A stretch of DNA of 64,000 nucleotides from Ylistrum balloti. Taxonomy: Eukaryota. Below, in pieces: positions 30,001-42,100 of this stretch; position 1 is the first letter of the stretch; the number at the start of each line of letters is the position of its first letter. The position numbers were made by a program. The stretch is taken from NCBI RefSeq assembly GCF_031769215.1, contig NW_026782711.1:1240001-1304000 (forward strand). The letters run 5' to 3'.

Positions 30001-33000
30001 AAGAACCAAAATTATTACATTAAGCACAGAAGCTGTAACGTTTAATGTAATAAAGAGGAAGTTTTTTAAACTAGGCGCAGCAGTCGCAAAGTTGAATGTA
30101 ATGAGTATTACATTAAGCGTTGTTATGACAATAAGAGTTGCAACAATGTCAGTCGAAGGTACCATACGATCTATTGGCAGGGATTTGGTGTAAATATTAC
30201 GGTCATTCACAAAATGCTATATACCAAATATTGTTCTATCACGCTTAAAAATCGAAATGAACATCAAATGTTATCAAATTTTGAAACTTAAGAATTGGTG
30301 ACCTGTCCACCTACACTCATCAGTGAGGAGGCGTAAAAGGACGAGGTAATGTGATTTATGTTCTTTATTTATGATTTGGTAAAGCCGATTAAATCTAAAG
30401 GTAATATCTACGGAAATCCAATTTGACGAAATTAATTAAAAACTGAACTTAGATAATTCCATGGTTGTTGCCTGTTGGAATGTCAGGACAGTAATGTAAA
30501 ACACACATTTCAGGATTTCCGCATCCATATTTGCGATGATGCGCAGATCAATATATCACGGTGTCTGAATACAGTAGAACGTAGAGTTAATAATAACAAG
30601 TCGATGGGTGCAAACAAACACATGTTTACATTGTCCTGAGCTTAATCTAATAACCATCCCTCCAGATTTTGATAAGCTGCTTAAATTGAAATTAACCAAT
30701 AGTCCAAAGTGTTATAAAATATTTTCAGACGTTCGGAAACAGAATTGGATAGCGATGTGCTGTTGGTAGATTAAACAGCAAACAATAATTTTTTGTTTGT
30801 CTTAGTTAAACATATCGTCGCACCTAAAACCATTTTCAACAGCTTTCTGTGATTGATGACACATAGATTGATTTAATTAATGAAATTAATAACGATTATT
30901 GTGAATGGTCACAGGGTATATTAGTAAATATCTAATTGGTTTTGTGGTGTTAAGGAAATGACACTCTATCCCACCAGGTTGCTTCTAGCTCCTAAATAAA
31001 GAGTGTTTATTTCTGTTACATATTCACGTACAGTGTTCTGTCTGACGTCTCGGAAGAATGAGCGCTGCAGCCAAGTTTCGCGCCAAACTGTCATATCTTC
31101 ACGAGATCTCGCGGCGTCCACGTCGCATTGCGTCATTATCGCTAATGATAACTTGGGGAACGCTTTACATTTGTTGACTGGATGTGACGTCAGCATGTGT
31201 TCCTTGAGGCTGAATGCCGAATGCAACAGGAATTATCGAGAAACGATTTGGAAGTACCGAACAGCTGCGACATTAAGCTGTCAGTATCGAGATGTTGACC
31301 GCTGACCGATGTTCGGGGGCCAACATCTGGAATTTCAGACGTTACTCACTATAGAAAAGTATAGAGAATAAATAGTAAAGATACAGCAAATGATGCGTAC
31401 ACCCCAAATAAGCTGTGATAAGGATTGTCAAAACTCGACATTCAAAAGCATTCCAAAGGCTAATGACGAATTGGAGTTGAATGTATCGTTAAATATCAAA
31501 TTGTACTCAAATCGCGTTTAAGGACATCTGTCCTACGACCTGACACACTGACCAGAATTACCCTCTGACAAGCAGCCCTTTAACGACGAGACCCATTACC
31601 ATGATCAACTCGACTGCCAAATATGAAGCTGAAACCACGTCACAAGGGTAACTACCCCATATGGTTCTATGTCCAGTAAAATGGGAATGGTTAATCCACT
31701 AAACGACCTGATCGATAAACATTAGCCATTGCCAACAGCGCTTTGTCTAACATCTATATATATATATCGTACTTTAATGGATTTCCGTGTCTTATGAAAG
31801 TACTGCTCTTCTATAAGCGAGCTGTGAAGGGTGTCATATATAATTAATACATATTCAGCGACAGGCAAACAGGTACATTATAACTAACGATTTGTTGTTT
31901 GCTGGAACGAAGAGGAAGATTTCAGAGTCGGTATTGGACAAAAATGAGGGATATAATTATTTAACAAGGAATTACAATACCTAAAATATATATAAAAATT
32001 ATCATAAGGGAAAAACAACTTTATAGTGCAGTGTAAAACCTATACAAAACACAAGTCATAGGTACAATCCTTTGACAGCGAAAATGTCAAGAGTAAAATT
32101 ATTACAAAATAATTTCCTTTTAATCAAATGAATGATTTACATAGTTATAACTTTTCAATAAAGCCTTGAACATCATCAATACGAAGCTTGTATCGGAAAT
32201 AAGCCTTAAATTCTTTCCTACACACCTAAAAATTTGAAATTCGTGTTGGAACGGCGACGACACATTGTCATAATTGCTGCTATGCTAGACGGATGACAAT
32301 GTCGAAGATGAATAGGTCATTCAGTTAAAATAAAATCATCGGCTAGGACAAACACACAATGGGAGTTTTGTAAACATAAATATTGAGATTTTATATCATT
32401 TGTGGCATGCTTGTCTGCCTGCTAAGCTCAGTCATATCACGACAGTTTATAGACAATTTAAAAATATATGAGACAGGTACTACAGTCTGTTCTCCAAGTT
32501 ATTCTATTTTTAAGACACTAGTCCATGATACCAACCACTGGACTGCTTAAACCATACTATAAAGAACAGAAAAACATCGTACGTTTTAATCGCCTTTACT
32601 TAAAAAAACAAAAACAGTCGTCAACAAAAACAAATGATTATGAAACACTAAAATGATGTCATTGTATTACTTTTTTGTATTTTTGGTGTGATGTATTTCC
32701 ATCTTCACAAGAACTGACATCACCAACACTCGATAACATTCTATTTATGTATATGAGTATGAATCGCACTAATTTGTGTACATTAGTCTGGGTGTTTCCT
32801 TGAACTAAGTCTGTGCATCTTACAATCACTTGGTCTTACGGTAACTAGATCTTTTGTCATGAAATGTGTTACTTAAGTATTCCTGTGTATCTCTAACCCA
32901 ACCAGTGTAATATATAAATCCTAATTCCTAGTACCAATCATTACTTCTAAATACAAATTTAATCAACAGAACTACAGATATAACAATATCAAAATATCTA

Positions 33001-39100: not shown

Positions 39101-42100
39101 ATATATTATTCGTCATCATATATTCACGTAAATGGTCCTTTCAGACTGGGTGATCAAACTAGGACCTACAACGTTTGGAAAGGATGACCAGTACCAATAC
39201 TCTGTGGTGACCGACAACCTGAAAGCCACACTCTTCGTACTGGCGCGAGACCCAGAAACCTTCAAGCGTGACTATGATGAAGAAATAGTTCAGTACCTCA
39301 AAGATCAAGGCTTCACTAACTTTATCAACAAACCGATAGCGACATACCATGGTCCCGACTGTATGTACGTCAAGCAGTGACAATATTGTGGAAATATTCA
39401 CAATGTACAAATGTAAATAGCTCATTGTGAAAACATCGTTGAATCAAATATACATACTCGTCTTCAAAAGACATATCTAGTTCCGTTTACCATTTTCATT
39501 CTTTATGTTAGATATTTTGATATTGTTATATTTGTAGTTCTGTTGATTAAATGAAAATTAAAACGATATATCTGACCAGTTTTTGTATTTTTTAGAAGTA
39601 ATGATTGGTACTAGGAATTAGGATTTATATATTACACTGGTTGGTTTAGAGATACACAGGAATACCTAAGAAGCACATTTCATGACAAAAGATCTAGTCA
39701 CCGTAAGACAAAGTGATTGTAAGATACACATAACTTAGTACAAGGCAACACCCATACAAATGTACACAAATTTGTGCAAATCATACTTATACATAAATAG
39801 AATGTTATCGAGTGTTGGTGATGTCAGTTCTTGTGAAGAAAGTTCCGAGAGGGGCAAACACAGTAAATGTACTTTCCATTTGCATATTATCAAGTGAGAA
39901 AAATGATACACGATTCAGTTTTTAGCGAATTGAGCCGTATCTCCAGTGAACAAGCATTCCATTTATCTATTGCTGATAATAATAACAGCCGAATTCTCCT
40001 AACCTATCATCATATGACTTCTTCATGGTGATTGAACAAACACACCTACATTGTATATATATTAGTGAGTGTCGGTACTAAAACTGTTAACGCACAATTA
40101 TATATATGAAATAAAGGAACCAGTGATTCGTGGTTTGAAATGTTTGAATTGACATTCAGTTTATTGAATATAAAACCTTGAATATAAGAGACAAAGGGTT
40201 GAAAGGGAAACATTTTTTCTCTACAATCGCACCTTCATGTTACAAAGGCGATGCACTTATAAGTACATTGCTTCGTGTTTGTCTTCTGAGAAATGTCTGA
40301 CCTGCTTTGCTTTATATATTTGCATATCGAAAAAAACAGGGGTTGCCTCTTAAAAAGTCATTCTAATGACTTCATAGTCGTCAATATTCCTGTACTTATT
40401 AAACAACTAGAATAATTCACTTAGCCGCCCGTCTAGAAATCAAGGACCTGTTCTATATATCACGTGTAAATCTTTGTTTATAGCTTTGTTTTATTGAATT
40501 TCAGTCTCTGATTTGTTTGTTGGTACATGCATACCTTGTTGTTTCAATAGCATGTAATGCAATACCCTGAAACGACCACTGTTGTAACATTTGTGCATTT
40601 TCGACCTTTCTTTTAAAATAAGATCTACCTGTCCTACAATATAAAAAAGCAGAAGTAATTGTACCTTTTGTTGTAAAGGAAGTGTTTCCGTTTTGCCTTA
40701 TCTTGGAATTTATGTATGGTGTTTAATTATTTGTCTGTATTGTACCCAATGCTAAATTTGTGTTGACAGAAGTTATTCACTTATTTATGGAAATCCTTAT
40801 AACAGATTCCCTACCACTTCTTTAAAGTCACCATTGTCCTTTACGATTTCACAGATGGTAACTGATGGAAATATATCGTAACCCACTAGTATACTCCTAC
40901 AATAGTTTACAATAGTGAGGTGGTACAGTGCCCTTCCGTTTAATATTCTAGGACAACTGGGTACCTGGATCGGAAATTCTTTTTATTTATTTATTTTTTT
41001 TTTTTTACAAGTTTCTATGTCCGCGTTTTTCTCAAACACTACAAAACAGCGCATATTAAGCCAAAAGCTGAGATGTAGAATGTTTAATTGACAATAGCAG
41101 TGCCGTAGGTTGTGATACAATTTTTGAACAGGCTCTATTGGCGCACTCATTTAGCCTTCTTCTCAAATGTGGATTTCTTTTTTATCGAACAGTCTGTCAC
41201 GAAAAATAACCATTGCCAAATACCTTATCTTCACTTTTACCTGAAGTCTTATCTTTAACTGAGAACACGTTTGCTGCCCATGGCTATCTGATATACTCTC
41301 CAGACCTGGAAATCGGAGACTCGACAAACTTCTTTACATCAGTTGCTTACCAATATATTGACATACAGCGCGACCAATACCGACAGTTTTCAAACTTAGT
41401 AGTATGGTAACTGTGATTATTTCAATTTTTCTACAGTGATTTTTCCCATTGCTTAGCGGTACTATATCCCTGTTTCTTCAACATATGGTTTTGATTTAAA
41501 GTTAACTGTGGTATGACTGAGTGAGGATCGCCGTCAACTCAAAGTTTCTTATTCTAAAAATCCATCCTTATATTGGCAATTATTTGCTGTATTTTAATAT
41601 ACTCGTGCGATATTTAGACCTGGATATTTCGATATTGCAGACATAATGATAAATTCCGGAACAGGTTTATTGACGTTCATTATCTAGCTGTGGTACAATA
41701 CACTATTATGATGACTCATACATTGAATTAGTTTCCTGGCAATTGTCCATCGCAACAAGGCCGAATCTTGACCATTCCCTATACTATCAAAAACCCCAAT
41801 TCTTAATTACCTTTTTCTCCCCTAAAAGAAATGTTCATTTCTGCTTTTGATAAATTGTCTACTACTTAATACACTGCATTTTTTAAGAAATAATCTTGCG
41901 GAGTTTTTTTCCCGTTTATCATTTTATTTCACTTCCATCATTTTATTTATAGTAATGTTCTTTTTCCTCAACTCATTTAATATTCAGTTGTTACGGAGGT
42001 ATGTTCCTGTTGACCACGGTACATAACCCCCTCGGTCTAAATTCTCATATTTCGGAATGTTTCGGACCATTAGATCAACTGCCAAACAAACTAATTGGAT

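What the first reader, a model, noticed from the sequence alone, without database searches (positions are those of the whole stretch)
32702..39839. Head-to-head ApoD-like pair with exon-bounded sequence homogenisation
The two lipocalin genes form an inverted pair. Hand counts of nucleotide differences: exon 1 9/135, exon 2 13/64 (8 purely synonymous), exon 3 3/162, exon 4 5/236. About 420-460 bp of 3' UTR also align well (32702-33122 with 39381-39839). The introns differ in length (e.g. 702 vs 315 nt) and cannot be aligned beyond the splice signals. Many synonymous changes in the short exon 2 and unalignable introns indicate an old duplication. Near-identity at synonymous sites in exons 3-4, stopping at the splice junctions, indicates recent exchange. 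This fits arm-to-arm gene conversion in a palindrome, limited by homology tract length. The 3' bias is also what an RNA/cDNA template would give (more speculative).
Basis: partly seen in the sequence, partly recalled or inferred. Interest (0 to 1): 0.65.

Follow-up and report, generated by a model that had tools for sequence, protein, structure and literature searches.

The report
Scallop lipocalin gene pair, exon-limited conversion
Two neighbouring, oppositely oriented lipocalin genes of a scallop are an old duplicate pair whose longer exons and 3' flank have been kept alike, most likely by copying between the copies; this is a clean example of a well-known process.

Summary
The window is scallop DNA (Ylistrum balloti), not human. 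It carries two four-exon, 198-aa Blc/TIL/ApoD-type lipocalin genes head-to-head, and both match RefSeq protein records.

Silent divergence is saturated in exon 2 (pS 0.74; 7 of 9 four-fold sites differ). It is 0.21 in exon 1 and 0.09-0.10 in exons 3-4. The heterogeneity is significant (p = 3e-6).

All nine intron pairings score like shuffled sequence. In contrast, 419 aligned bases beyond the stop codon differ at only 5.3%.

The best reading is an old inverted duplication followed by repeated short interlocus gene conversion. Conversion is confined to islands of surviving homology, and the 64-nt exon 2 escapes it. This is inferred, not shown, because no orthologous DNA could be examined.

The cDNA idea is disfavoured: all introns are retained and the 5' UTR is not homogenised. 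No GC-bias signature was found. This is a new member of a known kind, of modest interest.

The parts
32702..33122 (-). Gene A 3' flank (putative 3' UTR), 421 nt, homologous to 39381-39839
   Evidence: 86.8% identity with gaps counted, 5.3% substitutions. Homology ends abruptly at 32702 after 52 identical bases (I8).
33123..33358 (-). Gene A exon 4 (236 nt, includes the stop codon)
   Evidence: 5 of 236 differences from B (4 synonymous, 1 V/I). Pfam PF24976 scores 27.2 bits.
33359..34060 (-). Gene A intron 3 (702 nt)
   Evidence: no similarity to any B intron. Only about 20 nt next to exon 4 aligns.
34061..34222 (-). Gene A exon 3 (162 nt)
   Evidence: 4 of 162 differences, all synonymous.
34223..34385 (-). 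Gene A intron 2 (163 nt)
   Evidence: no similarity to B introns.
34386..34449 (-). Gene A exon 2 (64 nt), the diverged exon
   Evidence: 13 of 64 differences, pS 0.74, 7 of 9 four-fold sites differ.
34450..34781 (-). Gene A intron 1 (332 nt)
   Evidence: no similarity to B introns.
34782..34916 (-). Gene A exon 1, coding part (135 nt)
   Evidence: 9 of 135 differences (6 synonymous, 3 replacement), dS 0.21.
34971..35048 (-). Gene A core-promoter island (TATATAAGAC and the 18-nt motif at 35008-35025)
   Evidence: I7, 76%; the 18-nt motif occurs only at these two places in the window.
35049..37779 (.). Unique spacer between the two promoters (2731 nt), with (AC)26 at 36080-36132
   Evidence: no inverted homology here apart from one 25-nt chance-level match. 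AC repeat.
37780..37857 (+). Gene B core-promoter island (18-nt motif at 37803-37820, TATA box); TGACGTCA at 37776 and 37663 in B only
37910..38044 (+). Gene B exon 1, coding part (135 nt)
38045..38345 (+). Gene B intron 1 (301 nt)
38346..38409 (+). Gene B exon 2 (64 nt)
38410..38667 (+). Gene B intron 2 (258 nt)
38668..38829 (+). Gene B exon 3 (162 nt)
   Evidence: The homology island is 38662-38837, at 97.7%.
38830..39144 (+). Gene B intron 3 (315 nt)
39145..39380 (+). Gene B exon 4 (236 nt, includes the stop codon)
39381..39839 (+). Gene B 3' flank (putative 3' UTR), 459 nt, a mosaic: 39381-39552 at 2.4%, 39661-39787 at 11.1%, 39788-39839 at 0%
   Evidence: ATTAAA at 39546 is conserved in A at 32963.

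Best explanation
Two secreted-type lipocalin genes of the Blc / temperature-induced-lipocalin / ApoD group lie head-to-head, 2,993 nt between their start codons. They descend from an old inverted duplication.

Neutral sequence has diverged beyond recognition: the introns, the 5' UTR, the spacer and the silent sites of exon 2. The longer stretches that purifying selection kept similar are still re-synchronised now and then by short, non-reciprocal homologous-recombination repair between the copies (interlocus gene conversion). Those stretches are exon 1 coding sequence, exon 3, and exon 4 with the flank attached to it.

A heteroduplex cannot extend into unalignable intron, so each exon is its own island. 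Divergence falls as island length rises: 77 nt at 83% identity, 150 nt at 94%, about 180 nt at 96-98%, and 717 nt as a mosaic of 0-11% divergence. The 64-nt exon 2 is too short, or is kept apart by selection on its three replacement differences, and so escapes.

Shown: the heterogeneity, the lack of intron homology, the sharp island edges and the mosaic. Inferred: that conversion is the cause, that island length sets the limit, and the ordering in time.
For: - Gene models match RefSeq records on one 1.31-Mb contig.
- Per-exon dS is 0.21, saturated (pS 0.74) for exon 2, 0.10 and 0.086. Third-position heterogeneity gives p = 2.9e-6, and exon 2 versus exons 3+4 gives p = 6.8e-6.
- All 9 of 9 intron pairings are indistinguishable from shuffles.
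- The non-coding 3' flank has only 22 mismatches in 419 aligned bases, close to the dS of exon 4. Low divergence is therefore regional, not codon-based.
- Island edges lie within 6-8 nt of the exon 3 junctions and about 22 nt upstream of exon 4. The distal edge is abrupt after 52 identical bases.
- Mismatches in the 3' block are clustered: 14 fall in one 127-nt window, a value reached in 22 of 5000 permutations.
- In exons 3-4, A and B share 14 residues that differ from both Pecten and Mizuhopecten, with a single A/B difference. In exon 2, A carries K58-D59 like Mizuhopecten and B carries R58-N59 like Pecten.
- A review states that conversion is usually reported for exons and that diverged introns impede it, and that adjacent inverted pairs do convert (PMC3966223, sections 4.2-4.3, passages read).
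Against: - Only two sequences were compared, with no orthologous DNA. Conversion is not separated from other causes by a tree or by GENECONV.
- Exon 2 has only 21 codons.
- There is no GC enrichment. GC3 is 0.45-0.56 in exons 3-4 against 0.48-0.57 in exon 2, and the 3' flank has GC 0.30, like the introns.
- The roughly 40-nt 5' UTR adjoins exon 1 yet is not homogenised.
- Pecten and Mizuhopecten each show one close orthologue in the protein collection. The age of the duplication therefore cannot be placed, and the K-D / R-N pattern rests on two adjacent residues and may be homoplasy.
- The island-length trend rests on four points.
- Read-level support for the assembly was not available.
Confidence: 0.7

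Rival explanations
1. There has been no exchange. The pair is old throughout, and exons 3-4 and the 3' flank are alike because silent and non-coding sites there are under strong constraint (codon optimality, mRNA structure, regulatory 3' UTR elements).
For: - There is no GC-bias signature of conversion.
- The promoter keeps an 18-nt perfect motif that is clearly held by selection, so selection does act on non-coding sequence here.
- The 5' UTR is not homogenised.
Against: - It needs about 95% identity over 419 non-coding bases and dS near 0.09 over 130 codons, while exon 2 of the same transcript is saturated.
- A short exon should be more constrained at silent sites, not less (general knowledge, recalled).
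- The 11% segment inside the flank, followed by 52 identical bases, fits tracts better than graded constraint.
Confidence: 0.07
2. RNA- or cDNA-templated repair. A spliced transcript of one copy served as the template that overwrote exonic stretches of the other copy, which is why the similarity stops at the splice junctions and is strongest at the 3' end.
For: - Similarity ends within 6-8 nt of the junctions of exon 3.
- The strongest and longest block is exon 4 plus the downstream flank.
- The introns share nothing.
Against: - All three introns are retained in both copies. The reverse-transcriptase model predicts intron loss when cDNA recombines across junctions (PMC3652778, only the start of the abstract seen in a search listing).
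- The 5' UTR is transcribed yet is not homogenised.
- About 20 nt of intron 3 upstream of exon 4 is shared, 17 of 20 aligned.
- A conserved ATTAAA lies 160-166 nt after the stop codon. If it is used, the last 250 nt or so of the homologous flank would lie outside the transcript.
- Diverged introns give the same edges under plain DNA-templated conversion.
Confidence: 0.07
3. Assembly or polishing artefact. Reads from one copy were mapped to the other in the most similar stretches, so the consensus was homogenised there.
For: The effect is strongest in the longest similar stretches, where mis-mapping is easiest. No read data could be examined.
Against: - The near-identical stretches still carry 9 silent or replacement differences in exons 3-4, and 22 substitutions plus four indels in the flank. 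Collapse should erase these.
- Both genes are separately annotated with distinct proteins.
- Mis-polishing can only act on stretches that are already similar, so it would not create a contrast of 0.09 against saturation.
Confidence: 0.08
4. The duplication is recent, and exon 2 of one copy was replaced from a third, distant paralogue. Exon 2 is then the converted part and the rest is simply young.
For: - A more distant paralogue class exists in scallops: P0027 and P0028, 62-64% identical to the Pecten orthologue P0003.
- Exon 2 of B has R58 like those paralogues.
Against: - A young pair would have alignable introns, 5' UTR and spacer, and none of these aligns.
- There is no third copy in the window.
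- B has N59, where the distant paralogues have G.
Confidence: 0.03

Closest known systems
Interlocus gene conversion between adjacent paralogues, as reviewed for Caenorhabditis (hsp16 modules as an inverted repeat, adjacent inverted hsp70 genes; PMC3966223, passages of sections 4.2-4.3 read)
   Same: These are adjacent paralogues in opposite orientation. Coding stretches are homogenised while other parts diverge. The review states that diverged introns may impede conversion because they fall below the homology threshold.
   Different: In Caenorhabditis the tracts often include the (very short) introns. Here all three introns are excluded, one short exon is excluded too, and a 420-460-nt non-coding 3' flank is included.
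Long-lasting concerted evolution of mammalian gene pairs BMP8A/B, DDX19A/B and TUBG1/2 (PMC2720389, passages read)
   Same: Part of each gene evolves in concert while other exons of the same gene diverge.
   Different: The mammalian tracts span exons and the introns between them and show raised GC and GC3. Here the introns are excluded and no GC rise is seen.
Arm-to-arm conversion in sex-chromosome palindromes (PMC4772468, only the search listing and the start of the abstract seen)
   Same: Inverted copies on one chromosome are kept alike by intrachromosomal conversion.
   Different: Palindrome arms are long and near-identical throughout, non-coding sequence included (recalled). Here only four islands totalling about 1.25 kb align, and the introns and the 2.7-kb spacer are unrelated.
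Blc / temperature-induced lipocalin / apolipoprotein D group of lipocalins (Pfam PF08212, PF24976)
   Same: - The exon 4 peptides match PF24976 at its cut-off.
- The full-length database records carry PF08212 and PF24976.
- The Pecten orthologue matches solved Blc (3mbt), TIL-1 (8wb2) and ApoD (2hzq).
- The GRWYQ motif sits at the end of exon 1.
   Different: The ligand and function are unknown. Names such as 'apolipoprotein D-like' are automatic annotations. Similarity to ApoD itself is no greater than to bacterial Blc.

Membership tests
Lipocalin, Blc/TIL/ApoD group | Match to the family profile (Pfam PF08212 Lipocalin_2 / PF24976 Lipocalin_10) | tested here: met
   Exon by exon, exon 4 of B scores 27.5 bits and of A 27.2 bits for PF24976 (cut-off 27). 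PF08212 scores 18 bits, below its cut-off of 24, for this piece alone. Exons 1-3 alone give nothing. The precomputed domains of database record P0001, which is identical to gene A's product, are PF08212 and PF24976.
Lipocalin, Blc/TIL/ApoD group | G-x-W motif of the first structurally conserved region (motif recalled, not from a call) | tested here: met
   GRWYQ ends exon 1 in both copies and is conserved in relatives.
Lipocalin, Blc/TIL/ApoD group | Eight-stranded beta-barrel with a C-terminal helix | not tested
   No fold was run on the window's proteins, because the joined exon model was left out. As a proxy, the Pecten orthologue P0003 aligns over residues 27-179 with solved Blc 3mbt (E = 1.2e-7).
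Interlocus gene conversion / concerted evolution of paralogues | Significant segment-wise heterogeneity of silent divergence between the copies | tested here: met
   chi-square p = 2.9e-6 for third positions; exon 2 pS 0.74 against dS 0.09-0.10 in exons 3-4.
Interlocus gene conversion / concerted evolution of paralogues | Low divergence extends to adjoining non-coding sequence, and the tracts form a mosaic with sharp ends | tested here: met
   the 3' flank differs at 5.3%, with segments at 2.4%, 11.1% and 0%; the clustering is reached in 22 of 5000 permutations; an abrupt end after 52 identical bases.
Interlocus gene conversion / concerted evolution of paralogues | Converted segments group by species and unconverted segments by paralogue when orthologues are added | tested here: inconclusive
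   Tested on proteins only. In exons 3-4, 14 residues are shared by A and B and differ from both outgroups. In exon 2, A = Mizuhopecten (K-D) and B = Pecten (R-N). Only one close orthologue per outgroup species was found, and no DNA was available.
Interlocus gene conversion / concerted evolution of paralogues | Raised GC / GC3 in converted tracts (frequent but not obligatory) | tested here: not met
   GC3 is 0.45-0.56 in exons 3-4 against 0.48-0.57 in exon 2. The 3' flank has GC 0.30-0.31 against 0.30-0.34 in the introns.
Palindrome with arm-to-arm conversion | Long continuous near-identical inverted arms, non-coding sequence included | tested here: not met
   four separate islands; the introns and spacer are unalignable.
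cDNA/RNA-templated conversion (retroprocessing) | Loss of introns within the converted span, and similarity confined to transcribed sequence | tested here: not met
   All three introns are present in both copies. The 5' UTR is not homogenised. About 20 nt of intron 3 is shared. The transcript ends are unknown.

The most novel reading that the evidence does not exclude
Exchange between the two copies is templated by spliced RNA or cDNA in short patches that never cross a junction. This homogenises exons and the transcribed 3' flank while leaving every intron untouched. It would be a natural animal example of transcript-templated repair between paralogues.
Probability: 0.06. Interest if true: 0.7.

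Novelty: new member of a known kind. Interest (0 to 1): 0.3.

Why it matters
The pair is a compact, clean illustration of how conversion and divergence partition a gene. One 64-nt exon with saturated silent sites sits between exons kept at dS of about 0.1, with introns of no detectable similarity.

It warns that dating this duplication from whole-gene dS or protein identity (96%) would be badly wrong. It also gives a natural series of island lengths (77, 150, about 180 and 717 nt) from which a minimal homology length for conversion in a bivalve could be estimated. For that, population or sister-species data are needed.

The three replacement differences in exon 2, together with the different promoters, suggest that the two copies have diverged in function while most of the protein is held in step. 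It does not open a new question.

Tried and rejected
- **Further homology outside the four islands.** blastn with word size 7 on 30000-36400 against 36401-42500 found only one 25-nt chance-level match. The repeat finder agreed.
- **Residual or displaced intron homology.** All 9 pairings gave z between -0.60 and +0.70. Global alignments gave z of about -0.2 to -0.3.
- **A third copy or spare exon in the window.** tblastn and blastn of each exon, the flank and the introns found only the two genes.
- **GC-biased conversion signature.** None was found.
- **A structured RNA in the conserved 3' flank.** There were 0 Rfam matches at gathering score in the whole window.
- **Closer relatives for a tree.** The exon 4 search gave 23 hits among 27 candidates. 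The profile search gave 1015 hits, of which 120 were listed. Nothing fell between 99% and 81% identity to the exon 4 peptide, and each outgroup scallop gave a single close orthologue.
- **Literature.** 'gene conversion' + 'restricted to exons' returned 3 papers, none relevant. 'Ylistrum balloti' + 'genome' returned 14 papers; among the 10 listed there was no nuclear genome paper, only the assembly number in a table. The lipocalin / bivalve / scallop search listed 12 of 22 papers, and none of the listed titles concerns this pair.
- **Rejected reading: the two copies are mis-joined haplotypes.** Alleles would have alignable introns.

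
Full report
**What the window is.** The exon 4 peptide of the + strand gene finds a 198-aa 'apolipoprotein D-like' protein of the scallop Ylistrum balloti at 99% identity. Its 90% cluster holds two RefSeq records, XP_060082812.1 (P0001) and XP_060082811.1 (P0024), both on one 1,313,078-nt contig. Every exon peptide of gene A is an exact substring of P0001, and every exon peptide of gene B of P0024. 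Searches with the window's genes were made exon by exon. The step of joining the exons into one model for a search or a fold was left out, and full-length comparisons used database records of the same or other species.

**The genes.**
- Gene B (+) has exons 37910-38044, 38346-38409, 38668-38829 and 39145-39380.
- Gene A (-) has exons 34916-34782, 34449-34386, 34222-34061 and 33358-33123.
- All introns are GT..AG, and the start codons are 2,993 nt apart.
- The exon 4 peptides reach Pfam PF24976 (27.5 and 27.2 bits, cut-off 27) and weakly match PF08212.
- The Pecten orthologue aligns with solved Blc, temperature-induced lipocalin and ApoD structures.
- These are Blc/TIL/ApoD-group lipocalins. 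The name 'ApoD-like' is an automatic label.

**Check of the counts.** Differences are 9/135, 13/64, 4/162 and 5/236 for exons 1-4. In exon 2, eight codons carry a single synonymous change and three carry replacements (A/V, K/R, D/N). All four differences in exon 3 are synonymous, as are four of the five in exon 4. Intron lengths, A versus B, are 332/301, 163/258 and 702/315.

**Silent divergence by exon** (Nei-Gojobori).

| Exon | Silent divergence | Silent differences / silent sites |
|---|---|---|
| 1 | dS 0.21 | 6 / 33.2 |
| 2 | pS 0.74, saturated (7 of 9 four-fold sites differ) | 10 / 13.5 |
| 3 | dS 0.10 | 4 / 41.7 |
| 4 | dS 0.086 | 4 / 49.2 |

- Third-position heterogeneity over the four exons: p = 2.9e-6.
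- Exon 2 versus exons 3+4: p = 6.8e-6.
- Exon 2 versus exon 1: p = 0.013.
- Exon 1 versus exons 3+4: p = 0.066, not significant.

**Non-coding sequence.** blastn with word size 7 between the two halves of 30000-42500 gives four co-linear inverted islands and nothing else but one 25-nt chance-level match:
- 37780-38051 with 35048-34775, at 82% (core promoter plus exon 1);
- exon 2 with 6 nt on each side, at 83%;
- exon 3 with 6-8 nt on each side, at 97.7%;
- 39123-39839 with 33378-32702, at 90% with gaps counted.

The repeat finder returns the same picture. With splice signals trimmed, all nine A x B intron pairings give local scores within -0.60 to +0.70 SD of 200 shuffles. The introns are not merely diverged; no similarity is detectable. 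The exons, flank and introns have no further copy in the window.

**The 3' block**. The 3' flank has 22 mismatches in 419 aligned bases (5.3%), and the whole 3' block has five indels of 2, 6, 33, 1 and 2 nt. That is about the dS of exon 4, so low divergence here is a property of the region, not of codons. The block is itself a mosaic:

| Segment | Divergence |
|---|---|
| exon 4 | 2.1% |
| 39381-39552 | 2.4% |
| 39661-39787 | 11.1% |
| 39788-39839 (last 52 nt) | 0% |

After the last 52 nt, similarity stops dead. As many as 14 mismatches fall in one 127-nt window, a value reached in 22 of 5000 permutations. An ATTAAA 160-166 nt after the stop codon is conserved in both copies. Which poly(A) site is used is unknown, so calling all 459 nt '3' UTR' is unverified.

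**The 5' end**. Similarity in exon 1 begins about 8 nt before the ATG. The roughly 40 nt between the TATA box and that point align poorly. Upstream, the TATATAAGAC box and an 18-nt perfect motif are shared, and the motif is found only at these two places in the window. The island is therefore bounded by the coding sequence, not by the exon. Two TGACGTCA palindromes lie in B's promoter only.

**Outgroups, proteins only.** Pecten maximus and Mizuhopecten yessoensis each show one close orthologue (P0003, P0004; 79-81% identity to the exon 4 peptide). Each also has a more distant paralogue on another contig (P0028, P0027; 62-64% identical to P0003). In exons 3 and 4, A and B share 6 + 8 residues that differ from both outgroups, with one A/B difference. 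In exon 2, A has K58-D59 like Mizuhopecten and P0002, while B has R58-N59 like Pecten, and R58 is found in all 7 more distant relatives aligned. It rests on two adjacent residues and on single-copy outgroups, so I count it as suggestive only.

**Mechanism.** Two timescales are needed. Saturation of exon 2, the introns, the 5' UTR and the spacer requires an old duplication. A divergence of 5-10% in exon 3, exon 4 and the attached flank requires later copying between the genes. At least two separate tracts are needed, because intron 3 between exons 3 and 4 shares nothing.

The simplest process is repeated short interlocus gene conversion between the inverted neighbours. It starts where purifying selection has preserved enough identity and stops where the partner strand has nothing to pair with. 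Divergence falls with island length (77, 150, about 180 and 717 nt), which fits a minimal homology requirement. The published threshold values are recalled, not checked here, and four points prove nothing. Exon 2 may also be protected by selection on its three replacements. By alignment to Blc and ApoD-type sequences they lie just after the G-x-W strand (for the Pecten orthologue; structural placement recalled).

**Rivals.**
- Pure constraint cannot easily explain the flank, nor why the shortest exon is the freest.
- The cDNA/RNA template idea gives the same junction-bounded edges. It is disfavoured because all the introns are retained, the 5' UTR is untouched and about 20 nt of intron 3 is shared. 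The reverse-transcriptase model expects intron loss (PMC3652778, only the start of the abstract seen in a listing).
- A recent duplication with a foreign exon 2 is contradicted by the introns.
- Polishing collapse could not be tested. The remaining private differences argue against it.
- The expected GC rise of biased conversion is absent. This is a point against conversion, though not a strong one for so few sites.

**Comparison with what is known.** A review of Caenorhabditis paralogues states that conversion is usually reported for exons, that diverged introns may impede it, and that adjacent inverted pairs convert (PMC3966223, passages read). Mammalian pairs with partial concerted evolution differ in that tracts include introns and show raised GC (PMC2720389, passages read). 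The scallop pair is thus a new member of a known kind. It is not a palindrome in the sex-chromosome sense.

**Unchecked.**
- Orthologous DNA, reads, transcripts and population data were not available.
- Supplementary files were not needed.
- I found no paper on this gene pair in the searches (10 of 14 and 12 of 22 papers listed).

Noticed in passing
window 36080-36132: An (AC)26 microsatellite followed by a short AT run lies in the middle of the unique spacer between the two lipocalin genes. Such repeats are often discussed as recombination-prone (recalled). No link to the conversion was tested.
   Followed up: no
window 37663-37670 and 37776-37783; 35008-35025 and 37803-37820: Gene B's upstream region has two TGACGTCA palindromes, which account for 2 of the 3 in the whole window (0.62 expected). 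Gene A has none at the aligned place. Both genes share an 18-nt perfect motif about 25 nt upstream of the TATA box. The promoters appear to have diverged while the coding parts stay in step.
   Followed up: partly
window 17642-20654: A 3-kb satellite array of a 41-nt unit (higher-order period 123, about 90% matches). It coincides with the strongest GC and AT skew in the window.
   Followed up: no
window 1683-2654, 15413-16139, 28560-28918, 52813-53300, 60357-61244: Five further tandem arrays with units of 46, 61, 48, 36 and 44 nt. Several of the long stop-free frames in the ORF list (28514-28982, 52585-53380) fall inside such arrays, so they are probably not genes.
   Followed up: no
window 20912-22150 (-): A 412-codon open frame with a full-length rhodopsin-family 7TM receptor match (PF00001, E = 6.4e-20). 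It is probably a single-exon GPCR gene, and it lies next to the satellite array.
   Followed up: partly
window 47414-48148 (+): A 244-codon open frame matching DUF4518 (PF15008, E = 2.7e-53) over profile positions 81-270 of 271. It is probably the large 3' exon of a gene whose first exon lies elsewhere.
   Followed up: no
window 11407-12900 (-): A 497-codon open frame with no Pfam match at E <= 0.001. It remains unexplained.
   Followed up: no
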